From Prorocentrum cordatum (taxonomy: Eukaryota), in contig CAUYUJ010000290.1 in NCBI GenBank assembly GCA_963575745.1, forward strand, positions 1 through 64,000: DNA of 64,000 nucleotides. The letters are read 5' to 3'. Below the pieces are notes generated by a model. It was not told the origin of the DNA. It saw only the letters and a program-made list of their open reading frames with translations, and searched no databases. Shown here piece by piece: positions 1 through 26,244 of the stretch; position 1 is the first letter of the stretch; each line of letters opens with the position of its first letter. The position numbers were made by a program, and so were the translations under genes.

Positions 1-36
1 GTAGTAGTAGTAGTAGTAGTAGTCGTAGTAGTAGTC

Positions 37-97
<61 letters not shown>

Positions 98-212
98 CAG
101 TAGTAGTAGTAGTAGTAGCAGTAGTAGTCGTAGTAGTAGTAGTAGCAGTAGTTGTCGTCGTAGTAATTGTAGTAGCAACAATGCTAAGAGTGGTTTTCAC
201 AGAAGTAGTAGT

Positions 213-256
<44 letters not shown>

Positions 257-316
257 CGTAGTCGTAGTAGTAGTAGTAGTAGTAGTAGCAGCAGTAGCAG
301 TAGCAGTAGCAGTATC

Positions 317-369
<53 letters not shown>

Positions 370-370
370 C
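1..370. repeat. (GTA)n trinucleotide microsatellite
   Basis: Near-pure gtagtagta run. The complementary (CTA)n run follows at about 480-690. Confidence 0.97.
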
Positions 371-479
371 AACAGTCAGGGCAATAGTTGTAGTCGCATT
401 CGTAGTCGTAGTAGATGTAGGTGCAGTGCTATTCATATTTCTGCTTTTACCACTGACACTATCACTACGATTGCTACCA

Positions 480-572
480 CTCCTTCTACTGCTACTACTA
501 CTAGGACTACTACTGCTACTGCTGCTGCTGCTACCATTTCTGCGAACATCATTATTAGTTTTGCTACCACTC

Positions 573-654
<82 letters not shown>

Positions 655-690
655 GACTACTACTGCCACTACTTTTACTGCTACTACTAT
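480..690. repeat. (CTA)n microsatellite, inverted relative to 1-370
   Basis: ctactacta run. Confidence 0.93.
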
Positions 691-1676: not shown

Positions 1677-1708
<32 letters not shown>

Positions 1709-1735
1709 CTCCTCCTCCTTCTCCTCTTAATCCTC

Positions 1736-1757
1736 TCCGTATCCATTCTGGCTCGAG
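1736..1757 (+). other. Relict dinoflagellate spliced leader upstream of the azoreductase ATG
   Basis: tccgtatccattctggctcgag matches DCCGTAGCCATTTTGGCTCAAG at 19/22. It ends 45 nt before ATG 1803. Confidence 0.85.
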
Positions 1758-1802
1758 CCGACCCCCGTGCGGCCGCGACGCCGCGCCCGGCGGCGCCGCG
1801 GC

Positions 1803-4800
1803 ATGGCGGGGATGTTCTCCGCCGAGCTGGCCTACCGGACTGTGGAGTTCGGAGGAGAGGCCGCTCTGCGCTCGGCGAGGCACGTGTTGCATCTGGACTG
1901 CTCCCACGGCCCCGCCTCGCTGGTGGCTCACGGCGCGGAGAGGCTCTTCGCGGAGCTGGGCAGGAGGCGGCCTGACCTGCACGTGGAGCACGTGCGCCTC
2001 TGGGAGGCTGGCACACGCTCGCGCATAGAGTACGGCCTGGAGCACGTGAGGTCCAAGATGGCGATGCTGGGGGGGGTGCACGAGCCCTGTGTGGTCCTTC
2101 ACGGGGGCCTCAGAGGTTCCCAGAAGTCCTTGCGGTTTGGGGGATTTCGTCCAGACTTCGTCGGATTTGATTGACATTTGGGCGAAGCATGGACGAATTT
2201 CGACGAAATCTGAACGACATCTGGATGAAAGGGTGAAGAGAGGTGGTCGAATTCCGGACGAACTCCAGTCGAAATCACGTGTTGATAGGGCTGCGGAGGT
2301 CCAGAGAAGTTCCCATGAAGGCTCACCCAGCGAGCCTGGTGACCTGCGGCGCTTCGCGGCCATCGAGGAGCTGGCCGCCCAGGTCGCGACCGCCCGGGGG
2401 CTGGTCGTTTCTGCGCCGATGTGGAATTACTCTGTGCCGTGGGTCCTGAAGCAGTACTTCTCGGCGGCGCGGCGTGGGGGAAAGCCGGCGGCGAAATCCG
2501 AACCCCACCCTCGCCGATTAACGATTCAGGCAACTCGATGGGCGGCGGGGATATGGTTCGGAATTTGTCGAAAACGTGGCGAAATCCGAACCCTAACCCC
2601 GCCTCGCATCGATTCAGGAGAATCCATGGTTGGTGGGGGTAGGGTTCGGATATCGTCACCTGGGAAGTGAGAGGGGGCAGGCCTTCTCAGAAGGCTGCCA
2701 GGCTTCTCAGAAGCCCTCGCGCCTTCCGAGAAGCTGTCCCTGTTTTCGGAGAAGGCTTAGACAACTTGTCAGAAGGCTGGAGGCCTTCCGAGCCTTCTGA
2801 GAAGGCCCGCCCCCTCTGACTTCCTCCCTGGGCTCGCCGCCGAATTTCGACTGCGTTCTGCACCCGGGCCTCACCTTCCGCGAGACGCCCGCGGGGCCCC
2901 TGGGGCTGCTCGGCGGGGGCCGCCCCGTTGTCATCGTGACGTCCTCTGGCGGGGCGGGGGGCAAGGACTACCTGGTGCCGTGGCTCAGGGACGTGGCGGG
3001 GATGATGGGCTTCGACGACGCCACCATCCAGGGCGACGATATCTATACCTCTCCACCGCCCTTGGCCTGGCCCATCCCTGAGGGGCCCAGGAGCTGTACA
3101 CATGCGACCCTGGCCAAGCCAGGGGGGCGTACACACCGCAACCGGGGTCAGTATGTGCCTAGGCCAGGGGCAGTGGACTTGTACCCAGACGTGCGATGTC
3201 CTGTTTGTTCTGGTATGGAGCGCCCGGACGTTCCGACCCTCTCCCTGGGGCCAGTTTTTCATCTTCAGTATACTCAGGATTACTCAGGATGAAAAACCGG
3301 TCTCAGGGACCGTATAGCCAACAAGTTCCAGTTTTTGTTCACGGTCCCTGGGCCCGTCGAGGGCCCCGGAGGCCGGAGAAGGCCAAACACCTCCCGTCCT
3401 GCTCTTTGCCACGACGCGAGCCTGTCTCGGTTCAGACCTCGCCGCCCTGCCGTCGTGGCCGCGCCGAACGCCGCGCACGCGGACCGCGCCGCTTTGCTCG
3501 AGGAGGTGGCCGCCGCGGCGGCCCGGGCCGCGGAGGCCCTTGGCGGCCCGGGCCGCGCGGCCGAGGCCGCGGCCCGGGTGGCGGCCGCCGCCGGGCACGC
3601 CCGCGGCGAGGAGGGCCCACCTGTGGAGGAGTGGCCGGGCATGCGCAAGATCGGCGGCGCGCCGGGGGTGAGCCGGGAGGTGGGGCGAGGAGGCGAGGCG
3701 GGCCTCCGAGGGGCGGCGGGGCCTCTCAGAAGGCCTCGCGCCGCTGAGGTTTTCTGTAGATGGCCTGGGAAGCTAATCAGAAGGCCAGAGGCCTCCCGAG
3801 CCTTCTGAGAAAGCGCACTCCTTCTGAGGAGTGCCGGCCACGCGTAAGATCGACGAAGAAACAGTTGCATAAGCATAGACTGTCGGGGCTCCGCGCGGAT
3901 TTCTTGGATCGGCGTTGGGCCTCCCTGGCGGCGCCTCCAGCGCCGCCCGTGGTGCGCTCCGTGCGCCAGGGAGGGGGTCCAGCGTGGATCCAAGAAAATC
4001 ACCCCAGACCCCCAACAGTTTAGTTATGTCTGTACCGTGTTTGCTTCCTCAAGATCGCATCGTACGACGCAAATTCATTCGTCAGGTCAGTGGTTTGCAA
4101 TTCCGACAGCACGCCTAAACAATGAGCTTACCAGAGACTCAGAGGCCGCCCCTCGACAGCAATGGGCGCAGTCAGTATACTACTTGGAGTAAAGGCTGAT
4201 TTGATCCTCCTCGTGGTCATCTACCATCTTCAACTCAGCGCCGGCGTTTGGCCGTGCTCTCTCGCCTGTCGCCGCTCTCCACAGCGTTTGGCTGTTCGTT
4301 TGCTTTGTCTACAGTACGCGTCCTCTCGGATGCAAGGCTGCTGTACTATACGGTACTGATAAGAGCGACCCTTCAACGGAGTGGCCTTCGGTGCGGGCCC
4401 ACCGGGGCCCCCCTGGCAGTGGCTTGCGCGCGTGGATCGGTCCCCCACGCGGCCCCCTGAAGCCGCGCACCAAAGGTCCCTTTTGCCTCTTGCCCAGGGC
4501 CGCTCTTGCGTGGAGGCGACGTGGGGCTCACGCAAGGGGGACCAGCGCTGATGGTGGTCAGCCCCCCCCCCCTCCGAGGTCCTCTGGCTGACCCAGGTTT
4601 GGGAGCCACCCGGAACCGGCCCGCGCTCCCCCGCCTTCCACTGGCCGGGGTCTGGGAGCCACTTCGTGGCCCTGGCCTGGGCTCGCCGCGTGGCCCTGGC
4701 CGACCCAGGCTCGCGCTGCCCCGGGTCATTGCGTTAGTGCGCCCCGAGAGGAGTGGGACTGCGAGCGCGTCCTCCAGTGGCTGCGCGCCCAGGGGGGCCT

Positions 4801-4981
4801 GAGCGCGGACGCGCTGGAGTCCATGGAGGCGGTCGGGGTGAGCGGGGAGCTGCTCCTCGGGGCGTCGGAGGACGATTGGCGCGAGGAGGAGCTGGGCCTG
4901 GAGGAGGCCGACGTGGCGCGCGCGGTGGAGCTGCAGGGAAGATTCCGCGCCCTCGCCGAGGGCGGTGCCGGCGCTGGCTGA
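1803..4981 (+). CDS. FMN-dependent NADH-azoreductase / flavodoxin-2-fold protein with C-terminal SAM-like domain. Exons approx 1803-2086, 2337-2460, 2849-3028, 3455-3628, 4751-4981 (993 nt, 330 aa).
   Basis: Joined exons read through in frame: HVLHLDCSH... APMWNYSVPWVLKQYF|DCVLHPGLTFRETPAGPLGLL... VVIVTSSGG... DYLVPWLRDVAGMMGFDD, which matches the AzoR/AcpD signature PMWNxSxPxxLKxYFDxxxxxGxTF. The last exon EEWDCERVLQWL...GVSGELLLGASEDDWREEELGL is SAM-like. Stop TGA at 4979-4981. Confidence 0.85.
2087..2336 (+). other. Intron 1 (250 nt) with terminal inverted repeat and direct repeat
   Basis: Direct repeat cgagcc at 2081-2086 and 2331-2336. Inverted repeat ctgtgtggtccttcacggg (2087-2105) vs cccatgaaggctcacccag (2312-2330), 15/19. 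Confidence 0.7.
2461..2848 (+). other. Intron 2 (388 nt), non-canonical, IR+DR bounded
   Basis: Direct repeat acttc (2456-2460) / atttc (2844-2848). Perfect 9-bp inverted repeat tcggcggcg (2461-2469) / cgccgccga (2835-2843). Removal restores LKQYF|DCV. Confidence 0.8.
3029..3454 (+). other. Intron 3 (426 nt), non-canonical, IR+DR bounded
   Basis: Direct repeat ccatc (3024-3028) / ccgtc (3450-3454). Inverted repeat cagggcgacga / tcgccgccctg, 10/11, extending to 16/21. Confidence 0.75.
3629..4750 (+). other. Intron 4 (1122 nt), GA-AG type within a 9-bp direct repeat
   Basis: gaggagtgg at 3626-3634 and 4748-4756. An AG|GA donor and AG|G acceptor are possible and keep the frame. Confidence 0.75.
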
Positions 4982-5186
4982 GCCGCGGCCCTCGCGCGCG
5001 CGCGAGCGGCCGAAGGCGCAGGCCTGCGCCAGACGTTTGACCGCGGCGTAGGCGCTGGGCGTTGGGCACGGAGAGAACGGGAACACGGAAGGATCGGTAG
5101 AATGAGAGCTGGAGTCCGATGGAGAGCAACGGGTTCCTCTATTTTCTGTCTCTTTCTAGATCTAGTGGTCTGATGGCCTTCGGCCC

Positions 5187-5995
5187 ATCCGCCACCGTGC
5201 CGTGGTTGTGGGTCAGAGTTCTCGGGGATGCTTCTTGGGGTCCCTTCGGAGCGCTCTCGGGGGCCTCTTGGGAGCAGTTTTGGGGTCTCTTGGGAGCCTC
5301 TGTGGGGTCCTCTGGGGGGCATCTTGGGGCCTTTTGGGGGTCTCTTGGGGGCTCTTGGTGGCCTCTTGGGGCCTCCTGGGGGCCCGGGGCCAAGGGCTCG
5401 AAATTTCCGTTCCGGTCCCCCATCTGGGCCCCCTCTTGGAGCCGTCTTTGGGGCCTCTTGGGCCGTCTTGGGCGCCTCTTGGGCTGTCTCGGGGTCCTCT
5501 TGGGCCGTTCTGGGGCCCTCTTGGAGGCCTCTTGGGCCGTCTTGGGGCGATCCTGGAGGCCTCTAGGGCCGTCTGGGAGCGTCGGGAAACCGAAAAGGCG
5601 AGAACGCCCAAACCCTTCAAACACCTCTGGAAAATACATGTTTTTGGCTTCTCGTGAGGCTTCTCGGAGGCCTTTCTGGGTGTCTTGGAGGCCTCTTGGG
5701 CCGTCTGGGGGCCATCTTGAGCGTCTTGGGGCGATCGTTCGGCGACTCTAGGCCCTCTTGGACCGTCTTCGGGGCCTCCTGGGGCCCTCCTGCCCCGTCC
5801 TGGGGCCTTCTTGGCCCGAAAAAGTCATGCGACAAGCCGCGACGGGTCCCAAGGGGCACGTGGGAAGCCTAAGGAGATTTGGCAATTTTGGCTCCGGGCC
5901 CCGTAAATATTTCTCAGGAGTGAGGACAGGCTTAAAGGATTAGGCAAAGGACCTGAGGACACGTCCACCCCGTGCCAAGCGGCACAGTGGTGGAT
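5187..5995. mobile_element. MITE-like non-autonomous element filled with degenerate ggggcctcttgg repeats
   Basis: Terminal IR atccgccaccgtgccg (5187-5202) / cggcacagtggtggat (5980-5995), 14/16. The interior repeat family recurs at about 27280-27810 and, complemented, at 49700-50150. Confidence 0.55.
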
Positions 5996-6357
5996 CTCTT
6001 ATATAGGCATAAATGTACCTACCTACATGTGCTACACCGCATCGAATACTACAACACGCTGCACACCACGCATCAAACACCACCACTCCAGAGGGGCAGA
6101 TCTAATGTCAGATGTGTGTGTGTGTGTGCGTGTGTGTCGTCGCCGTCTCTGCTTCCAGGCAGTCCTTGGCCTCCTCGTAGCTCCACTCTACTCTCTCGTT
6201 CCCCCTGCCTTCCTGGGTCGGTTGGCTTTGGGCACCTTCCACATCACCGTAGTCTCGTCCTTCCACTGTTCCTCTTCGCCATCCACGCCCGGATTAGTTT
6301 AGCTTGCAGGTCGGCCTTGGCCTTCTTGTCGTTCCACTCTGCTTTCTCGCCCCCCAT

Positions 6358-6699
6358 GAGATTGTTTTTTTATCCTCTGGGGGGTAACGCTCGTTACCCG
6401 GGCCTCTCCCCCCCCCCCCCCCCCCGTAACGGTACCGCTCGTGCGCGGGGGGGGTCTCGGTCTTCCCCTCCAACATGCTGGTGCCCGAAGGCATGCGCAC
6501 TGTGGTGTGGTGGTCGCAGGCGCACTGTGGGCGCTCGCAGGCCATTGCGGCGCTCGCATGCGCGATGCTGGTGCTTGCGGGCTTTGCGCTTGTACTCGAA
6601 TCGTCGTCGTCGTCGTCGACGGCGCCCGAAAAACGGCCTCCGGAGTCCGACAAAGGCACAAAAACAACGTCGTCGTCGTCGTCGTCGTCGTCCTCGTTG

Positions 6700-6751
<52 letters not shown>

Positions 6752-6881
6752 CGGCGCCCGAAAAACGGCCTCCGGAGTCCGAAAAAGGCGAAAAACGTTG
6801 TCGTCGTCGTCGTCGTCGTCGTCCATCGTCGTCGTCGACGGCGCCCGAAAACGGCCTCCGGAGGGCGAAACAGGCGAAAAA

Positions 6882-6935
<54 letters not shown>

Positions 6936-7275
6936 CGGCGCTCGAAAACGGCCTCCGGAGGCCGAAACAGGCGGCAAACGTCGTCGTCGTCGTCGTCGAC
7001 CTCGTCGCTCGTCGCTCGTCGATCATCGTCGTCGCGCGCGCGGGCGCGGGCGTGGTGCCGGGACCACGCGGCGGGCTTTGCGCTTGTACTCGAATCGCAA
7101 GCCACTGTGGTGCTCTCAGGCAGAGAGTGCTGCTCGCGCGCATACTATGGCGATCGCAGAGCGCCCCTGCCTCGCCATACCCCGCCCAGCCCAAGCGTTA
7201 CCGTTACCCGAGGGGCACGACCCCCCCCCCCCCCCGGGTAACGAGCGTTATCGGCCAGAATAAAAAAACAATCTC
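6358..7275. mobile_element. MITE with long TIRs and 3-bp CAT target duplication
   Basis: TIR gagattgtttttttat / ataaaaaaacaatctc plus a perfect sub-terminal IR taacgctcgttacccggg / cccgggtaacgagcgtta. CAT at 6355-6357 and 7276-7278. It splits one unit of a roughly 150-bp tandem duplication that resumes exactly across the site. Confidence 0.85.
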
Positions 7276-8677
7276 CATGCCTTCCAGTCCCAGTTGGCTT
7301 TTGGCACCTCCAATCTAAGCGTAGTCTCTTCCTCCCAGCGTTCCCACCCGCCATCCATGCCCGGATGGTTATGTCTGCTGTCGGCCTGGAGACCCTGAGT
7401 GGTCTTTGAGTGCTCGGGTGGGCTTACACGCGCGCGCGCAATTAGTTGATCTCCGACCTTCTATGTCCCGTCGCTGCGCGCAGGGCGGCGACGCCAAAGT
7501 GTGTGTGTGTGTGTGTGTGCGCGGGGGGGTGACGCACCGAGTCCTGCCTCCCACAGCTTGTCCGTATAGATATTATTCTGCCCCTCCGAATATGTCCAAT
7601 GGGCACTGCGATTTCTCTCTCTCTCTATCTCTCTCATTTTTTTGTTCTCTCTCTCCCTCTCTCTCTCTCTCGTCAGCTGGCATTCTCCACACAGTGCTTG
7701 CACTCAGGGTTCCTGGCTTATTTTCAGGAACTGGGTCTGGCTGGCGGTCTGGCGGCTCCGTGCTCGCCGTCGCCGCCCTGTCGCCGCCTCGTCGCCGCCC
7801 GTCGTCTGGGCCTGGTTGGCGGTCTGGTGGCTCTGTGTTCGCCGTCCCCGCCCCGTCGCCTTCTCGTCGCTGCCCTTCGTCTTGGCCTGGCTTGCGGTCT
7901 GGCGGCTCCGTGCTCGCCGTCGCCACTCCGTCGTCGCCGTCGCCGCCCCGTCGTCGTCTCGCATAGATAGCATCGCATAGAGTGCACCGCGTATATTTGT
8001 TTTTTTTTTTTTTGTTTGAAAGAACATGGACTCTAATCCCCCCGGCTTTATTGTTATATTTTTTGTGTTGCAATTTTCATATGATTCTGCCCCATCGTTC
8101 ATCTTGAATATGAATTCGTTCCATCCTTGCCCAGCTAGTATCGACCCCCCCCGCCATCCTCTGCAAAACATGCTATGCGCGCGCACTCGTTTGTCACAGT
8201 TCATCAATTTCCAAGAACCTCTTGCACAATAGTGAGACGAACTGCACACGCGCGCGTCGTCGCGCGCGCATGCCGAAATCTGTCAAAAACCTTCGGTGTC
8301 GGACGGATGTCAAAACCGAGTGTCAAAAAACAGTAATATATGGTCGAGAGTTTGGCCTCCCCCCCCCCCAATGCTAATGCCATCGGCCCCCCCCCCCCCG
8401 CGCGATGCCCCCCCCCTGTGGGCGTGGGCTTGGCGTGGTGGTTCCCCCCCTCCCCCTTGTGGATGTGGTGTGGGTGTGGTGTGTTGCTGTGGGTGTGTGC
8501 GGGGTGACGCCATGGTCCTCCTCCCCCCCTCTCTCCCCCCCTGTTGGTGCGGTGTGGGTGCGGCGTGTGGCTGGGGTTGGCGTCATGTTGACAGCTCCGG
8601 TGCTCGACGTCGTCGCCGCCGCCGCTGGTGGTGCCATCGACGTCGTCGTCGTTGTCGTCGTCGTTGTCGTTGTCGTT

Positions 8678-12437: not shown

Positions 12438-12944
12438 GTCGTCGTCGTCGCTCGTCGCCCGTCGCTCGTTGCGTCGTGCGCGCGGGCGCGGCTGTGGTGC
12501 CGGAGATTTTGCAAAACAGTTTTCACGCGCGTTCTTGCGGAATCTTTCAAGAACACCATAGGCTTTTCAATATTTTCAAAACATACCACCAAATGGGCTT
12601 CGCGCGCGCATGTCGAAATCGTTCGAACGCCCTTGCGCGCGTGCCGGCGCGAGAATCCTTTTGAACAAAATAGGACGAAGTTCGCGCGCGCGTCGTCGCG
12701 CGCGCATGCCGAAATCGTTCAAAAACCTTCGGCTTCGAAAGGGTTTCAAAATCTACTGCCCAAAAACATACAAAAGCACAGGGTTTCGCAACACGGACTT
12801 TGAACAAAAGCGTGCGCGCGCGCTCTTGCGTCGTCGTCGTCGCCGTCCTCGTCCTATGTCTTTCCTCGTCGTCGTCGCCGTCGTCCTCTTTGGCGTCGTC
12901 GTCGTTTCCGTCGTCATTGTCGCCGTGGTCGTCCTTCCTCCTCC

Positions 12945-12986
<42 letters not shown>

Positions 12987-13374
12987 CGTCGTCGGCGTCT
13001 CGTCGTCGTCCCTCCTATTTCGTCGCCGTCGTCGTCGTCGTCGTCGTTCCCGTCGTCGTCGTCGTCTTCCTTCCTCCCTCGTCGTTGTCGTCGTCGGCGT
13101 CGCCGTCCTCTCTCCTTCTTCGTCGTTCGCGTTGTCGCCGTCCTCCCTCCTGCCTCGTCATTGTCGTCGTTGTCGCCGTCGTCGTCCTCCCTCTTTTCTC
13201 GTCGTCGGCGTCGTCTTCGTTGGCGACGTCGTCGTCGTCGTCGTCGTCGTCGTCTTCGTTGTCGTCGTCGTCGGCGTCGTCGTCGTCGTCGTCGGCGTCG
13301 GCGTCGGCGTCGGCGTCGTAATCGTCGTCGTCGTCGTTGTCGTCGTCGGCGTCGCCGTCGGCGTCGGCGTCGTA

Positions 13375-13408
<34 letters not shown>

Positions 13409-13414
13409 GTGTCG

Positions 13415-13452
<38 letters not shown>

Positions 13453-15679
13453 GTCGTCGAAGTCGTCGGAGACGTCGTCGGTGTCGTCATAGTCGTCGTC
13501 GGCGTCGTCGTCGTCGTCATTGTCGCTCTCGTCGTCGGCGTCGCTGTCGTTGCCAAGTGCCATTTGGTACCCACCGTCACGGTCTTAAAAGAACTCCTGC
13601 GACCTTGTTGCGGGTGGGGGGTGGGATGTTTGCACGAGCAGTGGAGAGGACCGCTTCAAGACAGTCGAAGTGAATTGCACCGCATAGAGTGCACCGCATA
13701 TATTACACAACCTGGGTTGCACTATGTATATGGCACAACATAAATCGCACCATATCGATTGCACAACAGCAGTATTATTATTTGCATCCCCCTGACTCAA
13801 CGGTCCGCCTTTTTTATATCGCACTTTACATATGATTTTGCCCCCATCCTTCATCCGAGCTGTGAAATCATGCCATCCCAAGCTTTCCTTGTATCGCTAT
13901 CCCCTCATCTTTCTTGTAAGAAGTGCAATGCCGGCACGCCCGTTCATTAAAAACCATCAAGTTCAAAGAACCCCTTGCAGGCAACATCAAAAGGACGACA
14001 TGCGCACGCTCGCGCCGTCGCGCGCGCATGCTGAATTGATTGGAGCAAAAAACATAGGTGTCGCAGGGATTTCAAAATGGAGTGTCCCGAACACAATCCT
14101 AACATAGTTGTTTCGGAAGAGGAATTTTCAAAATAAACCTGCGCTCGCGCTTTTGCGGGTTTGGAAGAAAACCATAGGTCTTTCATCACATTCATCCAGT
14201 GTGACCAAGCGTGCCCTTCGCTCGAGCATGCCGAAATCATTCGTGCGCCCTGGCGCGCGTTTTGTCGCAAAAACCCTTGCAGCGCGCATGCCAGAATCCT
14301 TCCAAAGTTCTGGAGGGATTTCAACATCGAGTGTCCCGAAAACTTATCAAACACCAACGGTTTCGCAACAATCATTTTCAAACAAGCCTGCGCTCGTGCT
14401 CCTGCGAATTCTTGAGGGAAACATCGGTTGTCCAACATGTTAATCCGCTGCGACGAAAGTGCCCCTCGCGCGCGCATGCCGGAATCATTCGAATGCCATT
14501 GCGCGCGGGTTGTCGCAAACGCTCCTTGCAACAATTTGAAGTGCACGCGCGCCGTCGCGCGCCTATGCCGAAATCCTTTCAAACATCTCTCTAGGTTGCG
14601 TAAGGATTTTAGAATCGAATGCCCTGAGAACGTACCAAAACACATTGCTTTGCAACCGCAGTTCCCAAACAAGGTCCGCGTGCGCGCTCTTGCGAAAACG
14701 AAACCTAAGCATTGGTTCTCAACATTCTCGTCACATTCAACCAAACGGGCTGCTCGCGCCGCATGTCAAAATGATTCGAACGCCCTGGCGCGCGTGCTGG
14801 GGGGGCACGGCCCCTATCAAATTGTAGCAAGCGGGGCACTCGCGCGCGTCGACCGCGCGCGCATGTCGAAATCTTTCCAAAACCTTTATCACCAACGCGA
14901 GGGCACAATCGTCGTCATCGGCGCGATCAGCATTGGCGCCGTCATTGCCCTTGCCGTCGTCATTGCCATCATCGTTGCCAGCATCGCTGGTATCATCGTC
15001 GCGCCTGTCGTTGTCGACGTCGCCATGGTGCCGCGCCCGCCTGATTCATCAGCTCCCACAGTTGTGCCCGCGCGTCGGCGCGGCTTGCGACAGGCGCTGG
15101 GGAGTTCCCAGCGGTCAGCGCCACCGCGGCCGCGTTGGTCGCGCCAGGCTAGCTGGCTTGCTGCGCGCGAGCCTGCGCGCGCTAGCACGGCCGCAGCGAT
15201 GCGCCAGCCAGCGCCAGGCAGCCATCGCAATCGCCGCCGCAAGGGTTTTGCAAACCTAGTTGCGGGTGGGTGGGTGGGTGGGATGATAGCACGAGCGTGC
15301 ATGGAGGTGGTCGCGCGCGGTGCAGGGTCGTCAATGGCACCACGTAGGTTGCACGAAGCGGTCAGTGCATCACATGAATTGCACAATGTAGGCTGCACCA
15401 CACATATTGCACCACATCGGTTGCACAACACCCTAGTGTTACCCCCAGTCATCCGGCGTTGCGAGTTTTTCGTGATGCGGACGCCCAAACCCCTCGACCC
15501 CATTCTGGGGACCTGTCTTTCTTCATGGGTAGTTTTGCGATGGCCCCTGGTCCGAAGGTGGGTTTGACAGGCCTGACTTGCTGTTGGGTTTCTATTTGCG
15601 ACGCCAGAGCTCTGGGCCCTTCCCCTGATCCCTCCCCTTTCGTACCCCCGTCCTCCCCCACCTCGGGCTCCGTGCCCTG

Positions 15680-15829: not shown

Positions 15830-16929
15830 ATGGCGATGTTGACGGAGACGGTGACGGTGACGGTGGTGACGGTGGTGACGATGATGATGGTGGTGATGAT
15901 CATGATGATGATTCAGATGGTGTTGGTGATGGCTCTGGTGATGATGATGGTGTTGCTGCTGATGATGATGAGGAGGAGGATAAGGATGATGATGAGGATG
16001 GTGGTGGTGATGATGATGATGCTGGTTCAGATGGTGTTGGTGATGGCGATGGTGATGATGGTGGTGATGATGATGATCATGATGTTGACGATGATGATAT
16101 GCTGATGCTGATGATGACAATGATGATGGTGATGGTCATGATGATGGTGGTGGTGCAGTGATGATGATTGTGGTGATGATGATGAGGAGGAGGATGATAA
16201 GGATGAAGATGAAAATGAGGATGAGAACGAGGATGAGGACGAGGATGATGATGATGCTGATGATGATGGTGATGACGATGATGGTGATGATGAAGATGAT
16301 TATGATGATTATGATGATTGGGATGATTATGATAATCATGATGGTGATGGTGATGGTGATGATGATGATGGTGATGGTGATGGTGCTAGCAATAATGCAG
16401 CGACGACCCTGACGACATCGATTGCGACAGCGATGACGGCAACGACGATGACTATGGCTAGCAGGATGGTATTGATATTGATTATGATGGTGATGATGCT
16501 GCTGCTGATGATGGTAGTAATGAGAATGGATGACGGTGATTCTGATGATGGTGACAACTATGACAGCGTCAACCATACTCATGCCGCTGATCATGATTAT
16601 GATGCTGCTGCTGATGATGATGCTAATTACAATGTCGATCACGATTATCGAGGTGATAACTATGATGCTGATGCTGCGTTGCTTCTGTTGCTGCTGCTGG
16701 TGCTGCTGCTGCTACTGCCGATGATGATGGTGATGATGATAAAGATACTGATACTGATGTTGATGCTGATGATGATGATGGCTGCTGATGATGGTGAGCT
16801 GATGATGCTGATTCTGATGATGGTGGTGCTGATGATGATGCTTATATTTGAGATGCTGATGCTGATGCTGGTGATGATGGTGATGGTGATGATGATGCTG
16901 CTGATGATGATGATTATGCTGATGATGAC

Positions 16930-16960
<31 letters not shown>

Positions 16961-16970
16961 TTGTTGTTGT

Positions 16971-17005
<35 letters not shown>

Positions 17006-17006
17006 C

Positions 17007-17052
<46 letters not shown>
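15830..17052. repeat. Degenerate (GAT)n microsatellite
   Basis: About 1.2 kb of gat/ggt/gct triplets. Confidence 0.95.
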
Positions 17053-18021: not shown

Positions 18022-21000
18022 TCACGAAATCTTCTTTTGAGCTTTCGCCTTGCCGGGCAGTCCTTGTAGCTGCCTCCATCTGTTCTGTAAATCCCAGCGC
18101 AGACTATTATGCATCCTCGAGAAATCTGGCTCATGGGTCACATAATTCCTGCGTAGCCACGTAGCGTGCTTCCTGCACGTCCTGCAGGTGATGTAGACAC
18201 TGTGTGCGTTGTGTCCCACGCGTACGTTGTGCTCGGCGGCCACACATGCGTTCATTTCTACTGGCGGAACCGTTGGCGTCGATCCGTTCCAAGAAACCAC
18301 GCTGGCTGACGAGGAACTGGTAACCGTCATCGGGGATGATGGCGACGAGCTGGCTCCCTGCGCGAAGCTGTCCGGTGATGGGGGCGGTGCGGCTGGCGCT
18401 GCCGATCCGCTTGCTGATGATGAACTCTGGGCTGCGACGGCAACCATCGGCGGCTCCATATAGACATCTCCGTCGACGTCTTCGGGAATGGTAGTCGGTA
18501 CATTGTTACGACGTCCGAGGTATCGTCCATCCCATCCTGGATATATTCCGGGCAAGGGGGTGTCCGCGTGCCCGGAGTGATCAGCCTTGGACCCACTGCT
18601 GGTGTTGTTGATGGTCCCGATCTGGATGGGATTGGGGTCGCCTGGCCCAAATATCTCCTTTCGCACCACAAACCACAGCGCTGCGAATAATGTAAATCCA
18701 ATCATGATCCCACTAAGCATCGCAATTCGTGTCATGTAGTAGATCCAATGTGACATCGGCACTTGCCATTCCTGTGGGGGATGCTGTGCCTTCACGCGTC
18801 CGAGACATGTCATCAGTACTGAAGCAAGCATGGCGGCGTGCGGTTGCCTAGTGCCGAAATTGTACTTCTTGGCCCCGAAGAAAGCGAGGAGCACTCCGGT
18901 CTCCATGGTCTTGGTGAGCGCGTCGGCGACCATACTCCACGTAGGTATCCACGAGAGCTTCAGCTGGCTGTTGGGGTGCACCGTCTCCTTAATCATTGAT
19001 GCCACGATGCGGAACCGCTTGTCCGTGGATTGACCCACGTCAGACTTGATGTGCGTCACCAACCCGTTGCTGTCGCTGTAGATCTCCCCGGATCGTTTGG
19101 TGCTGAGGTCATCGATCTGCTTGAGCGTCTTCTTCGGGTTGTAGGCCTCCGTAAGTAGCTGACCGAACCACGTGCTCGATTCGGCGCCCTCCAGAATGGC
19201 GTAGCCCTCGGCGGCCAGCGTAGACTTCACGGATCGCTTGACCGTGCCCGAATGCCAGGCCACAGGCAAGCACAAATCATATCGTCCAGCCACGACGTCC
19301 CGTGGCTTGTGGGTTAGCCCGATCGCCATGCCCCACTGGCTCTTCACCCCGTCCACATTGGCGAAGGCCGCGTCGCTGAAACAGACGATGGTGCAAGTGC
19401 GCAGGTCAATGATATTGCGCTTGATGACTATGGCGAAATCGGCGGACCCGTGCACGTAAGCGACGGTCTTGTTCAGCGTCTTGGCGTCGGCCACGGTGGC
19501 GGTGTTGGTGCGGCGAGCTGCAAGGCTCACCGGGCAGGCGATGTCCACTCGCGTCTGTACTGCGAGCCAAAGCAGTTGGCCGAGTGTGTGGCGATATCCT
19601 GAGACCTCCGAGGTGGTAAGACGATCCTCTGGTGATCGTCCGCGTTGGGCGTTGAGTTCGATGAAATCCACTTGGGCGGCGGCCGTCGCCTGGGTAATGC
19701 GGAACTCCTCGTTGGTCTTGTTGATTGTCCGGCCGCAGTACTTGATGATGCCCTCTACCTTCTTGAGGTGCAGCCTTTTCTGCAAGGAGCTAATAACTCG
19801 CTTCCACTCGCTGGAGCTTCCGCGCTGGGCGATGAGGAAATCATCCACATGGGAGTGAATCATAGCAGCGAGCCCTTTGTCGTCGTAGAAGTAGTAAAGG
19901 CCCTTCTCGAGCTTGCTCTCGATGAGGCCGTGCTCTTGGAACACCTTTTGAGCGTAGAGGTACCACTGGCGTCCGGCATCCCGGGTACCGTAGATGGCGC
20001 CAGTCGCCATCACGATCTCGCCGGGCGATGTACGCGGCGGCGGGTTCTTGGCTGGCATACGCAGCAATAGCAGCCTCTCGATGTTGCCCGACTGCAGGTA
20101 AGCCGTCATCGCGTCGTACGACGTGAGGTCCCAGCCAAGCTGGGCGGCGGCAGCAAGAGTGAGGTAAAGCGCGTCCCTTGACCCGGTCGGCGCGTCCGTA
20201 CGGATTTGGGACTTGTCCTCTTGACAGCCCTGGACGACAAGGCGGGCCTTCATGAGGTTGGCAGCCTTCTGCGTGAGCACCCAGCGGGTACCAACTGGTC
20301 GTATTCCAGGGTGTCGCTGGAAGATCTCCTTCAACTCCTTGGGCGGTAGCTTCTTGTAGGCCCCGAACTCGGTCCACTTGGACCGCTCAACCTCCATGGC
20401 CGTGTCCATGAGCTTCTTGTCCTTGGCGGAGAGCTTGTCGTACCTGATCTCCTTGGCAGCGGCCTTTCCGGTGAGCATCACCTCCCGGAGTCGGATGGTC
20501 GAATGCGAATCGCCGTCGTTGATCTCTAGATAGTTGTCCAAGTAGAGGTCGGTCCTGAGTGTGTCCTTCGGCCTCTTGAAGCACTTGGGTAGGTCGTCCT
20601 TGAGACTCTCCAGGAATTCCTTGCGCTTAATGGCCTTGCTGCGGTCGTCTGTTTGATCGTGCCTGTCGCGTTCTAGGGCGCGAGGTGCGTCCTCTTGTTG
20701 GGCTTGACGCTGAGCCTTGTTACCGCGTTGTCCTTCAGGATGTTGTGGTCTGCGGGCAAGGGCTTCTTTGCGAACTTCCTCCTCCGCGGCCTTGCTCCAG
20801 TCGCGTAGACCTTCGGATCCGGAGCTGTCGGCGTCCGAGGAATGTCCATCAGCTTCTGTGCGTCGAGCTCCTGGTGTTGGAAGTCGTGTTTCATCACGTT
20901 CTTCAGGCTGTTCGTCATGTAACTCTGGTTGCACGATAGGTTCTGGAGCTGGATCTTCAGCGTGATCTGGGTCTTCTTGAGCAGGGTCATGGGCGGGGTC

Positions 21001-24000
21001 AGCGACAGCAACTGAGTCAGCAATAGGCACCGGAGGCGCTGGAGGCGCTGGCAGAAGGTCTCTTCCCGAAGGTGCTGGTGCTGAACCGCTTCCTGAGGCG
21101 CCCCCGCTGGTCGTATATTCCTCATCTCCTTGCCGTCGGCGAAGCCACTCAAGAGTAGCATGGGCACGTCGATTGTGTGGAGTATCTTCGATATTGCCGA
21201 AGTTGTGCTGCTTGATGGCCGGTGGCGGAGGTGGTAGTGCTGGCGGATCGTTGTTCACTCGCGGGCGTTTCTTCGGCGTTTCGCCCGTGAGGTCGATGAA
21301 TGTATCTCCATCTCCTCCTTTATCTGATGGTGGTAATCCGCCTCCACCGCAGTCTCCACCTTCATGTGGTGATTCTTCGTCCCCTCCTCCTGGTCTTGGT
21401 GGCTGCGGTCCGTCAGGAGGTGGGGGCCGGTCAGCTGGTGGTTGTCCTGGCGGTGGTGGTGGCTGATTGCCGTTCATGGCGTCGAATACCTGTCCCCAGG
21501 GCACGAGCTCTGAGGCAGTAGCGTGACGTAAATGTCCTCGGTTGACCTTGACGGTGGTGGAACGATGGCTGACCCATACATTCGAGGTACCCTCGAAACC
21601 AATGATGATGCCGGGTCCATGCCATTGCAAAGCCCATTCACGCTTAGGCTTGCCGTTCCCCCTCCAGTAATATACCTGGTCCCCTGTCTGGTAGATGTCC
21701 GACGCGTGCTGAGCTCCATCCGCACGCGATCGTGCGAGTAAGGCCCGGGACAGGGACTGGTTGAACCGTAGATGCTGGATTGACGTCTGGGCGGCCTTCA
21801 TGAGGGCAATCCTCTCAGAGAAGGACTTATCAGAGACCACTCTCTCGTGTAGCGAGAGTCTCCCAGCGCTATCCAGCAGGCAATAGGGTAGTTGAAGTCC
21901 ACGTCCGAGTACCCACTGTGCCGGTGAATACCCACTGGCATTGATTGAGCTATTCATAGCCCAGCAGACAGCGGCGAGCAGCCACTGGATCTTGTGGGCG
22001 TTCGCGGGCTGGTCGAACCTGATGCTGAACTGGTCGATCAGCTTCCTGGCGTGGACCTTCCACATGCCGCCGTGCCTTTCCACGGTGGCGTTCTGTTGCG
22101 GCGTAGCCGCGGCAGTAGTCATAAGGCGACAGCCCATGTCCTCGAGCTCCTTTGAGAACTCCCTCTCAAACTCGCCTCCTCCATCAAAAAGTACCCGTTG
22201 TGGTGCTCCAAACGGTGTAATCCAAATCTGCAAAAGCCTCGCGAATACAACCGAGGGGTGTCTTGAAGAAACTGTACCACATAATGTAAATCCAGAAGCG
22301 AGGTCGACCACATTGAGGAAAACCAACTGATTGCCGGCGTAGTCGGCGAGGGTGAACAAGTCCACTCCAATGGAATCGTTAAAGTCCCTATCTAGCTTAA
22401 TTCTCCCAGGTAGATGAGGGAGGGGTCGCCGATGGGCGGCGCAGACTTCGCAATGCAGGTTGAGCGCCATCTCGACCGCTCTTTGGGATCCACCCGTCAC
22501 TCGGATGGCCCGGGCCAGCGCATCGTTGGCAGGGTGCCCCGTGTTGACGTGGAGCTGCAATATGGCGGACTTGAGCGTCCGCTCCTCCGCTGCCGTCAAG
22601 GCTGGCTCTGCGGGAGCTGCCGGGGCAGGCACTGTCCTCCTCGCGGCTCTCCGTCTCGTTGGTTCCGCGGGGTTTGCCTCGCGGTGCTCGGTCGTGTTCG
22701 TCTTGCGAAGCTGCTTGACCAGCATAGCGACGAGCTTATCAGTGTAGTTCTCGCTGTCCTTGGCGAGCTTGCCACGGGCCTCGACGTGTTTGTGTAGGCC
22801 GTTGCAAAGCTTGTGCAGCGAGTTGTCGATCCCGTAGTGGTCGATGATAATCCTCCACGGCTTCTTGATCGCGTCCCCGTTCCTTGTCTGAAGGCCGTAA
22901 GCGCAGCCATCGAAATCGATGATGCGCGGGAGCTGATCCTTCAGCTTCTTCGCGGTGTAGTTCTTCCTCTGATCCCAGCCGTCGCAGTAGCGCGGCCACT
23001 CAAAGGAGACCGCGAGCTGGCTGCCGAACTCCTTCCGCAGACGGCTCATTGACGTCAGGAAGAGGTCGATCATCCTGGCGGAATCCTTCCGGTCCCTTTT
23101 CAGCTTCTCAGCCTTGCGGGGGTCGATCTTCAAGATGATGCGCTGCAACGTGGTCCACGGCGTGCATGGAAATGCGGCATGGACCCGTACACTCTGGCCC
23201 TTCCGCAGGTTCTTCCGAATCTTGTCCTCGGGCTTCTCGACGATGGGCTTCCGAGAGAGGTCCAATCCAGGAAGACCGCAACGTACAGCAGCTCCTCCAC
23301 TCTCGATCCACTTCGCACTGAGCTTGCTGTCGGGGTTGCAGCACCACTCGTAGAGGATGGTGGTGTTGCTCGAGATTCCGCTCGAGTTCGTAGTTTGCTT
23401 AGCCAGGTCAGCCTTGAGCGCCTGGCTGACTGTGTGTGGCTTAACGCCGCTCTTATTGGTGACGATGGCCGACCGCTTGCCGGCGGTCAGCTGCAGCCTT
23501 GTCCCTTTCTTAAGCCGCCGTGCCTTCATCTGCTCCTCCTCCACGATGTTGACCTCCTTCGGGTCGTTGTCTTTCTCGATGTCCAACGTGACCGAGTTGC
23601 CGAAAACGCACTCGGAGCAGAACCCGAGGTGGCAGCAGTCGGTATAGGACTTGGCGCCGCAGGCCACGCAATCGTCGAGGGGCTCGGCGACGCAGGTAGT
23701 GGCCGACATCATTGTTGGAGCAAACGTCGGCGGCGTGACCGCCGTCGAACAGCAGACCAACGCAGAGCTTACGGCGGCCATGAGCCTCGAGCTGCCGCCG
23801 CGTCGCTGTTGAAGTCGTCTCGGTACATTTAGCTCCTTCTTGGGAATGAGTCTCGTGATATTCTCGAGCAAGTTGCTCGCCTTCGTAGTGATGTTGACAT
23901 TGGGCTTCGGGACTGGCCGCTTGGCGATGCTCTTGGTACTAACAGCCTTCGGTCCAAAATCATGCCCCGCGCCCTTGATGGCAAGCCAGTCCTCCGGGTG

Positions 24001-25719: not shown

Positions 25720-26125
25720 CTTGACACCTTCGTAGGTGGAGTATGTGGCGTCGCTGACACCGTCGTAGGAGAGGTATATGGCGTCGCTGACACCGTTGTA
25801 GGAGAAATATATGGCGTCGCTGACACCGTCGTAGGAGAGGTATGCCGCGTCGCTGACACAGGCGTAGGGGAAGTATATGGCGTCGCTGACACCGTTGTAG
25901 GGGAAGTATGCCGCGTCGCTGACACAGGCGTAGGAGAAGTATGTGGCGTCGCTGACACCGTTGTAGGGGAAGTATGCCGCGTCGCTGACGCAGGCGTTGG
26001 AGCTGGCAGGGATGTAGGCGTAGTAGGCGTAGTCGCTGGCGTCGCTGACGCTGGCGTTGACGCTGGCGTCGCTGACGCTGGCGTAGGTGCTGGCGTCGCT
26101 GACGCTGGCGTAGGTGCTGGCGCTG
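25720..26125. repeat. 33-bp and 24-bp tandem repeats in the copia leader, in frame with gag
   Basis: gcgtcgctgaca core repeated about 12 times. Translates as VSDAxYxxYxG units. Confidence 0.9.
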
Positions 26126-26225
26126 AGCAACAGCGCGAGGAGGCCGCTGGGCCTCGATTCCAGTATGGATCGCGACGTCGCAGACGTCGTCTTGAGTATG
26201 CGGCCCCGCGGGCCGGGATAGCGAG

Positions 26226-26243
26226 CCTCGCTCCAAGCTACCA
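26226..26243 (-). promoter_or_regulatory. Primer binding site (possibly initiator tRNA-Met type)
   Basis: Minus strand TGGTAGCTTGGAGCGAGG lies 1 nt inside the 5-prime LTR and is complementary to a tRNA end ...GCTACCA. The tRNA identity is an inference. Confidence 0.75.
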
Positions 26244-26244
26244 C

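What the first reader, a model, noticed from the sequence alone, without database searches (positions are those of the whole stretch)
2081..3454. Three introns without canonical splice sites, each closed by its own terminal stem and a 5-6 bp direct repeat
Seen: the azoreductase frame is restored exactly by deleting from one direct-repeat copy to the other (cgagcc/cgagcc, acttc/atttc, ccatc/ccgtc). No register inside those repeats gives GT/GC/GA...AG. Directly inside each repeat lies an inverted repeat (15/19; 9/9; 10/11 extending to 16/21), and the three IR sequences are unrelated to each other. Intron 2 splits the conserved LKQYF|D motif, and the nearest AG alternatives would insert 14 residues or delete 12. 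Lengths 250 and 388 are not multiples of 3, so removal is required. The DR mismatches are silent or conservative (TAC/TAT, ATC/GTC). Known: IR+DR non-canonical introns occur in the parasitic dinoflagellate Amoebophrya, introner transposons create introns in dinoflagellates, and euglenids have stem-closed nonconventional introns. Inference: structure-guided splicing, or precise DNA-level excision, working in an SL-bearing dinoflagellate gene alongside an ordinary GA-AG intron. Intron 1 alone has a GT(2076)-AG(2334) alternative that loses 3 codons.
Basis: partly seen in the sequence, partly recalled or inferred. Interest (0 to 1): 0.88.

Follow-up and report, generated by a model that had tools for sequence, protein, structure and literature searches.

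The report
Odd-ended hairpin introns in a dinoflagellate gene
Three hairpin-ended, transposon-like inserts inside an enzyme gene of the red-tide alga Prorocentrum cordatum are missing from its messenger RNA exactly at short repeats, although none has the usual splice signals, and the published gene model is wrong at all three.

Summary
Assembled transcripts lack 2081-2330 (250 nt), 2458-2845 (388 nt) and 3027-3452 (426 nt), each movable within its 5-6 nt direct repeat. The first two joints are in three runs from three studies. The third is in one run only, of unrecorded library type; a second run keeps intron 3. No permitted register gives GT/GC/GA..AG.

Each intron starts and ends with an inverted repeat abutting the repeat. 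Only 4 of 20000 random pairs score as well, for each intron. The fourth intron has GA..AG in one register, a 9-nt direct repeat and no inverted repeat.

The RNA join is collinear with 36 of 36 dinoflagellate homologues. The NCBI model, forced onto canonical sites, is the only outlier. A worn spliced leader sits at 1737-1757, so the gene is probably a retrogene and its introns later gains.

The inserts match the inverted-repeat plus direct-repeat non-canonical introns of Amoebophrya. My searches did not find these reported for a free-living dinoflagellate. Whether the stem guides removal, and which machinery does it, remains inferred. This scan noted related cases on other DNA of this genome (e1-7627401, e1-7625971). 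Verdict: a new member of a known kind.

The parts
1737..1757 (+). Relic dinoflagellate spliced leader, 18 of 21 letters, 46 nt upstream of the ATG. It marks the gene as a probable retrogene.
   Evidence: the only match in the window with up to 3 mismatches; 0 of 100 shuffles gave any match. The leader sequence was taken from the abstract of PMC5585692. RNA contigs start at 1752, 1758 and 1782.
1803..2080 (+). Coding exon 1 (ATG at 1803). The transcript contig starts at 1758.
   Evidence: Identical to residues 1-92 of P0001.
2081..2330 (+). Intron 1, 250 nt. The register can move by 0-6 nt within the direct repeat CGAGCC (2081-2086 and 2331-2336). Possible ends are CG..AG, GA..GC, AG..CG, GC..GA, CC..AG, CC..GC and CT..CC. 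Inverted repeat 2087-2105 with 2312-2330, 15 of 19.
   Evidence: Joint 2080>2331 with 6 ambiguous letters, one contig each in X1, X3 and X17. Registers and inverted repeat. 4 of 20000 random pairs score as well. The closing stem appears in the lowest-energy and centroid folds, but the whole-intron z-score is only -1.27.
2331..2457 (+). Exon 2. It ends in ...LKQYF.
   Evidence: Pfam Flavodoxin_2 profile positions 68-98.
2458..2845 (+). Intron 2, 388 nt. The register can move 0-3 nt to the right. Permitted ends are TT..AT, TC..TT, CT..TT and TC..TC. Direct repeat ACTTC (2456-2460) and ATTTC (2844-2848). Inverted repeat TCGGCGGCG (2461-2469) with CGCCGCCGA (2835-2843), 9 of 9. Inside lie two tandem 88-nt hairpin units (2490-2650) and a palindrome (2663-2824).
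   Evidence: Joint 2457>2846 with 3 ambiguous letters in X1, X3 and X17; the mRNA keeps C2457 of the 5' copy. (4 of 20000). Fold z-score -13.0. The stretch 2774-2889 has high depth with foreign flanks in RNA contigs, so it is multi-copy.
2846..3026 (+). Exon 3. It starts in ...DCVLHPGLTFRE.
   Evidence: Pfam Flavodoxin_2 profile positions 100-169.
3027..3452 (+). Intron 3, 426 nt, in frame but containing a stop codon. The register can move 0-2 nt to the right. Permitted ends are TC..CG, CC..GT and CA..TC. Direct repeat CCATC (3024-3028) and CCGTC (3450-3454). Inverted repeat from 3029 with the stretch ending at 3449, 9 of the first 10 and 16 of 21. An inner perfect hairpin lies at 3242-3309.
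   Evidence: Joint 3026>3453 with 2 ambiguous letters, in X3 only (one 1176-nt contig with 0 mismatches). The X1 contig reads on into the intron as far as 3235, which is retention. (4 of 20000). Fold z-score -5.53. Stop codon seen.
3453..3628 (+). Exon 4.
3629..4750 (+). Intron 4, 1122 nt, GA..AG in register +3. It is bounded by the 9-nt direct repeat GAGGAGTGG (3626-3634 and 4748-4756). It has no terminal inverted repeat. It holds multi-copy repeats at 3712-3827 and about 3888-3997.
   Evidence: Joint 3625>4748 with 9 ambiguous letters in X1 and X3. Registers. Inverted repeat 4 of 6, reached by 2717 of 20000 random pairs. 71% identity to 2693-2819.
4751..4981 (+). Last coding exon (SAM-like tail) with the stop codon. 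The transcript contig runs on to 5119.
   Evidence: The 993-nt joined reading frame has a single, terminal stop.

Best explanation
These are real introns removed from the RNA in the cell.

A retro-copied azoreductase-SAM gene of Prorocentrum cordatum was hit three times by unrelated hairpin-ended insertions. Each looks like a miniature DNA transposon, with terminal inverted repeats and a 5-6 bp target duplication.

In the transcript, the inverted repeat forms a stem that closes the insert and lays the two direct-repeat copies side by side. The insert and one repeat copy are then removed, which restores the pre-insertion reading frame exactly.

The terminal dinucleotides are not read. The 5' cut lies 0-2 nt before the stem and the 3' cut 3-5 nt after it, in the two introns where a repeat mismatch fixes the register.

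Shown: exact removal in RNA, non-canonical ends, terminal stems, and conservation of the joined protein.

Inferred: the transposon origin, the guiding role of the stem, and the machinery. I lean about 55:45 towards a spliceosome that tolerates any ends when a stem holds them together, as proposed for Amoebophrya, over a separate cut-and-ligate route.
For: Joints:
- 2080>2331 and 2457>2846 each appear in one contig from each of X1, X3 and X17. These are three studies, and X17 is a polyA RNA library.
- 3026>3453 appears in X3, in a 1176-nt contig with 0 mismatches that carries all four joints.
- Depth is zero inside introns 1 and 2 (bins 2194-2309 and 2542-2657) in all 4 laid runs.

Other RNA evidence:
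- None of the 20 runs that hold part of the stretch holds more than 0.31 of its words. I calculate about 0.31-0.36 for the exons alone.
- The stranded raw reads of X23 lie in the sense direction.
- The 849-nt X1 contig is spliced at introns 1 and 2 but continues 209 nt into intron 3 with 0 other letters in that piece (1 in the whole contig). So the RNA comes from a copy that carries intron 3.

Structure:
- No canonical register exists.
- For each terminal inverted repeat, 4 of 20000 random pairs score as well; for the canonical intron 4 the figure is 2717 of 20000.
- The closing stem is in the lowest-energy fold of all three introns.

Conservation:
- The joined protein is collinear with 36 of 36 homologues at joints 2 and 3. 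At joint 1 it has no gap at the joint itself (4 homologues have a 4-residue insertion a few residues downstream).
- It is also collinear with solved AzoR structures. The exons downstream of the inserts are therefore still under selection.
- P0001 is the only P. cordatum protein among the 37 hits.

Origin:
- The relic spliced leader implies the introns were gained after retro-copying.
- Other RNA contigs carry the inner palindrome of intron 2, followed by a look-alike of its 3' end and then by different flanks (loose ends at 2824). That fits a repeated element family.
Against: - Joint 3 rests on one contig from one run whose library type is not on record. A second run retains that intron.
- The three contig runs give presence, not levels. 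The raw-read run gave only 33 reads and no listed joints.
- No DNA run of the same strain could be laid, and no genome is held. An intronless or less interrupted twin copy is therefore not formally excluded.
- No other copies of the intron 1 or intron 3 elements were found in the 64-kb window or in the scan's index. Their transposon origin rests on inverted and direct repeats alone.
- The whole-intron fold of intron 1 is no more stable than shuffles (z -1.27; 21 of 200 shuffles fold as well).
- The target duplications differ in length (6, 5 and 5 nt). A single fixed-distance ruler measured from the stem cannot explain all three.
Confidence: 0.78

Rival explanations
1. The facts are the same, but the machinery is not the spliceosome. 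A structure-specific endonuclease cuts at the base of the stem and an RNA ligase joins the exons, as suspected for the nonconventional introns of euglenids, which leave as circles. This is a variant of the best explanation. Its probability lies inside the 0.78 given there.
For: - In the registers that RNA permits, introns 2 and 3 have neither a 5' G nor a 3' AG.
- Stems occur at 3 of 3 odd-ended introns and at 0 of 1 canonical intron in the same gene.
- Euglenids also mix both intron types within one gene (passages of PMC11282704).
Against: - No bulge-helix-bulge or other fixed geometry was found.
- Exon-exon pairing beside the repeats is no better than at random coding positions (fraction at or below the observed energy 0.17-0.48).
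- Duplications of 5 and 6 nt do not fit one ruler.
- No circles or ligation products could be looked for here.
Confidence: 0.35
2. The mature mRNA comes from a second, uninterrupted or less interrupted DNA copy. This could be a recent duplicate, a strain polymorphism, or somatic precise excision of the elements. The copy in the window would then be silent.
For: - Dinoflagellate genes are often multi-copy and retro-copied (PMC5585692).
- No DNA run was among the holders, and no genome is held. Empty sites could not be checked.
Against: - The X1 contig joins exons 1-3 and then carries intron 3 of this very locus, with 1 mismatch in 849 nt.
- Only one P. cordatum protein appears among 37 family hits.
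- Three unrelated elements would all have to excise without a footprint. Established knowledge of cut-and-paste transposons (recalled) makes that unlikely.
Confidence: 0.08
3. This is a library artefact. Reverse transcriptase jumps across the hairpin between the direct repeats in the test tube, and the cell's mRNA still holds the inserts.
For: Direct repeats, non-canonical ends and a hairpin are the classic signature of template switching (PMC2923612; search listing and start of abstract only).
Against: - Removal is complete in the contigs of three independent studies, with zero depth inside introns 1 and 2.
- The exact homology actually usable is only 3 nt at joint 2 and 2 nt at joint 3.
- With the inserts retained the frame is closed by stops, yet the exons downstream keep family-invariant motifs such as DCVLHPGLTFRE.
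Confidence: 0.04

Closest known systems
Non-canonical introner elements of Amoebophrya A25 and A120 (Farhat et al. 2021, PMC7789003; passages read)
   Same: RNA-supported introns without a fixed end dinucleotide. They have 8-20 nt inverted repeats joining the two ends into a hairpin and short direct repeats across the exon-intron borders. They have no transposase and they coexist with canonical introns in the same gene.
   Different: The host here is a free-living, photosynthetic core dinoflagellate with a multi-gigabase genome, not a parasitic syndinean. One direct repeat is 6 nt, whereas Farhat's definition gives 3-5 nt. Family membership is shown only in part, for intron 2. The loss of U1 reported in Amoebophrya was not examined here.
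Introner-like elements of Polarella glacialis and Symbiodinium (Roy et al., bioRxiv 10.1101/2020.10.14.339549; passages read)
   Same: Inverted-repeat elements with target duplications of 4-8 nt create introns in dinoflagellate genes. Intron 4 here (GA..AG, both sites inside a 9-nt repeat) matches their pattern in which both splice sites come from the duplication.
   Different: In the passages read, every described class supplies G[ACT]..AG splice sites from the duplication or the element. Introns 1-3 here have none in any register.
Introner elements reported in P. cordatum itself (Dougan et al. 2023, PMC10666404; passages of the main text and of 2 held supplements)
   Same: Same species. The same inverted-plus-direct-repeat pattern search found such elements in 2.4% of annotated introns.
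   Different: That survey looked only inside introns predicted by tools limited to GT, GC or GA donors. In the text I saw it does not report odd-ended splicing. Its gene model for this locus (P0001) misses all three joints.
Nonconventional introns of euglenids (as reviewed in PMC11282704; passages read)
   Same: Variable ends, a terminal stem that brings the ends together, frequent duplication-like repeats at the borders, a suspected miniature-transposon origin, and coexistence with conventional introns.
   Different: An unrelated lineage. The euglenid CAG/CTG positions and the circular excision products were not shown here.
Identically repeated intron boundaries of dinoflagellates (Mendez et al. 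2015; I saw it only as a citation; the 2-9 bp figure is recalled)
   Same: The same short sequence sits at both intron borders and is kept once in the mRNA.
   Different: As I recall, those introns use conventional dinoflagellate splice sites and were not described with terminal inverted repeats.

Membership tests
Amoebophrya-type non-canonical introner element (Farhat 2021 definition) | The intron is supported by RNA | tested here: met
   Joints appear in contigs of 3 runs for introns 1 and 2, and of 1 run for intron 3.
Amoebophrya-type non-canonical introner element (Farhat 2021 definition) | The splice dinucleotides are not canonical | tested here: met
   No GT/GC/GA..AG in any register. 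The registers that RNA permits are TT..AT through TC..TC for intron 2 and TC..CG through CA..TC for intron 3.
Amoebophrya-type non-canonical introner element (Farhat 2021 definition) | An 8-20 nt inverted repeat between the 5' and 3' intron ends | tested here: met
   15 of 19, 9 of 9 and 9 of 10 (16 of 21). For each, 4 of 20000 random pairs score as well. The stems appear in the lowest-energy folds.
Amoebophrya-type non-canonical introner element (Farhat 2021 definition) | A 3-5 nt direct repeat across the exon-intron borders | tested here: met
   5 nt (4 of 5) in introns 2 and 3. Intron 1 has 6 nt (6 of 6), one nucleotide over the stated range.
Amoebophrya-type non-canonical introner element (Farhat 2021 definition) | The intron belongs to a repeated family in the genome | tested here: inconclusive
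   The inner part and the 3' end of intron 2 recur with other flanks in RNA contigs and in intron 4 (71% identity). No copies of introns 1 or 3 were found in the window or in the scan's index. No genome is held.
Spliceosomal introner (Roy, Gozashti and colleagues) | G[TCA]..AG splice sites supplied by the target duplication or the element | tested here: not met
   Not met for introns 1-3. Met for intron 4 (GA..AG at register +3), which lacks an inverted repeat.
Miniature inverted-repeat transposable element (MITE) | Terminal inverted repeats, a target-site duplication, small size and no coding capacity | tested here: met
   Lengths are 244, 383 and 421 nt between the repeats. An unrelated inverted-repeat element with a 5-bp duplication (CCATG) lies at 6354-7279 in the same window.
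Miniature inverted-repeat transposable element (MITE) | Many copies with shared ends | tested here: inconclusive
   As in the repeated-family row above: partial for intron 2 only.
Euglenid nonconventional intron | Excised as a full-length circle after the conventional introns | not testable with these tools
   Also, contigs cannot show circles.
FMN-dependent NADH-azoreductase (Pfam Flavodoxin_2, AzoR) | Domain match and collinearity with solved AzoR structures | tested here: met
   PF02525 matches exons 2 and 3 above the curated cut-off: 29.3 and 29.9 bits against 27. P0002 against 1tik/1v4b gives E about 1e-14 and is collinear across joints 2 and 3. Enzyme activity was not tested.

The most novel reading that the evidence does not exclude
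Free-living dinoflagellates have a second RNA excision route, independent of the spliceosome. It recognises a stem that closes an insert and rejoins the flanks exactly. Hairpin transposons that land in coding exons would thereby become harmless at once. The route would be shared with Amoebophrya and analogous to the nonconventional intron pathway of euglenids. It would have been hidden because dinoflagellate gene finders admit only GT, GC or GA donors with AG acceptors.
Probability: 0.3. Interest if true: 0.9.

Novelty: new member of a known kind. Interest (0 to 1): 0.66.

Why it matters
- The ability to remove hairpin-closed, odd-ended introns would not be a quirk of the parasite Amoebophrya. 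It would also exist in a bloom-forming core dinoflagellate that otherwise uses ordinary dinoflagellate splice sites.
- That makes the mechanism testable in a culturable alga, with one gene that offers three odd introns and one ordinary intron side by side.
- A relic spliced leader dates all four introns as probable gains after retro-copying. This gives a clean view of intron birth from insertions.
- In practice, annotation pipelines that force canonical sites give wrong proteins at such introns. Here the model gains 15 residues and loses two conserved segments, and its identity to a homologue (P0002) is 51%, against 70-75% for the window's exons 1 and 3 aligned to it. Protein catalogues of these genomes may carry systematic errors.

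Tried and rejected
- **Whole-genome search:** no genome is held for this window. Genome-wide copy counts, empty sites and a second gene copy could not be checked.
- **Exon-exon pairing beside the direct repeats.** The lowest-energy folds paired the two exon flanks in all three introns, which suggested a helix-loop-helix or bulge-helix-bulge signal, or a palindromic target site. Two tests against about 13300 coding positions found nothing unusual. Fractions at or below the observed energy were 0.23-0.48 for free folding and 0.17-0.48 for folding centred on the repeat. Rejected.
- **Blind scan of the window** for exact direct repeats of 5 nt or more plus inverted repeats of at least 10 of 12. 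It gave 30 candidates, but it missed all three real introns, whose repeats are imperfect. The mirror-repeat control was swamped by microsatellites (1136 hits). It is not usable as a count.
- **Rfam:** nothing reached a gathering score. There were only weak microRNA-precursor-like hits on the perfect hairpin at 3242-3309.
- **Scan index by sequence,** for the three introns: no look-alikes.
- **Joint 2813>3884** (one X1 contig, 25 letters on the shorter side). I read this as a cross-match between related repeats in introns 2 and 4, not as a splice.
- **Dead-pseudogene reading:** rejected because of the spliced transcripts and the conserved joined protein.
- **RNA editing creating canonical sites:** rejected by reasoning only. 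Several edits per intron would be needed.
- **Literature.** I found no report of odd-ended splicing in Prorocentrum or in other core dinoflagellates. The searches were made, plus passages of PMC10666404, PMC11453091, PMC11282704 and PMC12130899. Only two of the supplementary files of PMC10666404 are held as text. The final Current Biology version of Roy et al. was not seen.
Full report
**What is in the sequence**

The window is GC-rich (0.58-0.73 over most of its length). Positions 1803-4981 hold a gene on the + strand. Its exon 1 is identical to residues 1-92 of an NCBI protein of Prorocentrum cordatum, P0001, which matches the window over its first 106 residues. Exons 2 and 3 match Pfam Flavodoxin_2 at profile positions 68-98 and 100-169, so the profile runs on across the second interruption.

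| Intron | Length | Direct repeat | Terminal inverted repeat |
|---|---|---|---|
| 1 | 250 nt | CGAGCC / CGAGCC | 15 of 19 |
| 2 | 388 nt | ACTTC / ATTTC | 9 of 9 (21 of 30) |
| 3 | 426 nt | CCATC / CCGTC | 9 of first 10, 16 of 21 |

Each inverted repeat starts directly inside the direct repeat. No register inside any repeat gives GT, GC or GA with AG.

**Is it more than chance?**

I drew 20000 random pairs of positions at each intron's spacing from GC-rich parts of the window. For each of the three introns, 4 of 20000 pairs reach the observed terminal inverted-repeat score. For the fourth intron (4 of 6), 2717 of 20000 do.

With a base-match probability of about 0.28 (my calculation from the GC content), a 6-of-6 direct repeat has a chance of about 5e-4, and 4 or more of 5 about 0.024.

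RNA folds place the closing stem in the lowest-energy structure of all three introns. Whole-intron z-scores are -1.27, -13.0 and -5.53. Intron 1 as a whole is therefore not unusually stable; only its ends pair. Introns 1, 2 and 3 share no sequence with each other.

**RNA evidence**

The run search found 20 runs from 9 studies that hold part of 1700-5000. None holds more than 0.31 of its words. I calculate 0.31-0.36 for the exons alone.

I laid four runs from four studies on 1730-5200:

| Joint | Skipped | Ambiguous letters | Seen in |
|---|---|---|---|
| 2080>2331 | 250 nt | 6 | X1, X3, X17 (one contig each) |
| 2457>2846 | 388 nt | 3 | X1, X3, X17 (one contig each) |
| 3026>3453 | 426 nt | 2 | X3 only |
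| 3625>4748 | 1122 nt | 9 | X1, X3 |

- X17 is a polyA RNA library. X1 and X3 have no library type on record.
- The X3 contig is 1176 nt long, has no mismatch and carries all four joints.
- Depth inside introns 1 and 2 is zero in all four runs.
- X23, a stranded raw-read run, gave only 33 reads and no listed joints. Its reads on the exons lie in the sense direction.
- The 849-nt X1 contig is spliced at introns 1 and 2 but reads 209 nt into intron 3. This ties the spliced RNA to a copy that carries intron 3, and it shows that intron 3 is removed less completely.
- These contigs come from 31-letter word graphs, so a 5-6 nt repeat cannot create a false joint. This last point is my inference.

**Cut register**

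The mRNA keeps C2457 and A3026, both from the 5' copy.

- Intron 2 is 2458-2845, movable up to 3 nt to the right. Its possible ends are TT..AT, TC..TT, CT..TT and TC..TC.
- Intron 3 is 3027-3452, movable up to 2 nt to the right. Its possible ends are TC..CG, CC..GT and CA..TC.

Relative to the stem, the 5' cut lies 0-3 nt (intron 2) or 0-2 nt (intron 3) before the first paired base. The 3' cut lies 2-5 nt or 3-5 nt after the last paired base. Both divergent letters sit in the discarded copy.

Intron 1 can be CG..AG or CC..AG, among other registers. Intron 4 is GA..AG at register +3, inside a 9-nt direct repeat, GAGGAGTGG.

**The joined protein is the conserved one**

A search with P0002, a 344-residue protein encoded on a 1090-nt contig, gave 37 dinoflagellate AzoR-SAM proteins from transcriptomes and genomes.

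In the alignment, the RNA-based join has no gap at joints 2 and 3 against 36 of 36 homologues. At joint 1 it has no gap at the joint itself; 4 homologues carry a 4-residue insertion a few residues downstream.

The NCBI model P0001 is the only outlier. It has 15 extra residues at joint 1 and lacks DCVLHPGLTFRE and the following residues at joint 2, and VAAPNAAHADR and the following residues at joint 3. P0002 also aligns to the solved AzoR structures 1tik and 1v4b across joints 2 and 3.

With the inserts retained the frame closes. Conservation of the downstream exons therefore argues that the cell makes the joined message.

**Origin**

A relic spliced leader lies at 1737-1757: 18 of 21 letters, the only match in the window, with 0 of 100 shuffles giving a match. 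The leader sequence came from PMC5585692. The X3 contig starts at 1758, just after the relic's AG. The gene is thus probably a retro-copy, and its four introns are probably later gains. That paper notes that partly processed RNAs can also be retro-copied, so this is likely rather than certain.

Intron 2 is composite. It holds two tandem 88-nt hairpin units (2490-2650) and a palindrome (2663-2824) between short end pieces. The palindrome has a 71% relative in intron 4. In other RNA contigs it is followed by a look-alike of the 3' end of intron 2 and then by different flanks (loose ends at 2824). That fits a repeated family.

An unrelated element with perfect inverted ends and a 5-bp duplication lies at 6354-7279. 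Elements with inverted ends and 5-bp duplications are therefore present elsewhere in this window.

**How it most likely works**

The stem brings the two repeat copies together, and one copy plus the insert is removed. The direct repeat looks like a historical target duplication rather than a signal, because removal stays exact although two repeats have decayed. That is weak evidence, from two cases.

The machinery is not identified. I tested one structural idea, pairing of the exon flanks, and rejected it.

Three rivals stand against removal in the cell at RNA level:
- A twin DNA copy without the inserts.
- Precise DNA excision of the elements.
- Reverse-transcriptase template switching during library preparation.

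All three are made unlikely by the intron 3 retention contig, the complete removal across studies, the 2-3 nt of usable homology, and the conserved exons. None is formally excluded without DNA reads from the same strain or direct RNA reads.

**Comparison with what is known**

- The pattern meets Farhat's definition of Amoebophrya introner elements. Exceptions are one 6-nt repeat and family membership that is unproven for introns 1 and 3.
- It fails the defining feature of the Polarella and Symbiodinium introner-like elements, whose classes all supply G[ACT]..AG sites.
- Dougan et al. reported inverted-plus-direct-repeat introns in P. cordatum, but only among introns predicted with GT, GC or GA donors.
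- The 2024 reviews assign arbitrary intron boundaries in dinoflagellates to Amoebophrya alone.
- My five searches found no report for a core dinoflagellate.
- Earlier notes of this scan describe an inverted-repeat introner and a 17.7-kb odd-ended intron elsewhere in the same genome. This is therefore not the scan's first sighting.

**Verdict**

The mechanism remains open. This is a new member of a known kind, with a practical consequence for gene annotation. Interest 0.66.

Noticed in passing
window 1737-1757: Relic dinoflagellate spliced leader, 18 of 21 letters, 46 nt before the start codon. One RNA contig begins at 1758, right after the relic's AG, which may be the present trans-splice acceptor.
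   Followed up: yes
window 1803-4981 (NCBI protein P0001): The public gene model uses canonical sites near each odd intron. As a result it gains 15 residues at joint 1 and loses conserved segments at joints 2 and 3. Its identity to the homologue P0002 is 51%, against 70-75% for the window's exons 1 and 3 aligned to P0002.
   Followed up: yes
window 3626-3634 and 4748-4756: The ordinary GA..AG intron 4 is bounded by a perfect 9-nt direct repeat but has no terminal inverted repeat. It was probably also born by an insertion or a repair event.
   Followed up: partly
window 6354-7279: A 921-bp spacing between two CCATG copies, which flank an element with perfectly inverted ends (AGATTGTTTTTTTA...). 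It is full of (CGT)n arrays and lies outside any recognised gene.
   Followed up: partly
window 2663-2824, 3712-3827 and about 3888-3997: Palindromic repeats inside introns 2 and 4 reach very high summed depth in RNA contigs (up to 433) with foreign flanks. These are abundant hairpin repeats that stay in many transcripts.
   Followed up: partly
window 3242-3309: A near-perfect 68-nt hairpin inside intron 3 gives weak hits to microRNA precursor families, far below the gathering scores.
   Followed up: partly
window 18022-26565 (- strand): An open frame of 2847 residues with reverse transcriptase (RVT_2) and integrase (rve) domains: a large copia-type retrotransposon.
   Followed up: partly
window 34393-47665 (+ strand): Three huge overlapping open frames of 1052, 1462 and 2095 residues in different frames. 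The only Pfam hit is a weak RRM_1 match. The frame changes lie near 37086-37551 and 41378-41474. They could be short odd introns, frameshifts or a giant element.
   Followed up: partly
window 1-689, 12829-13543 and 15876-17052: Very long trinucleotide arrays: (GTA)n about 123 copies, (CGT)n about 236 copies and (TGA)n about 389 copies.
   Followed up: no
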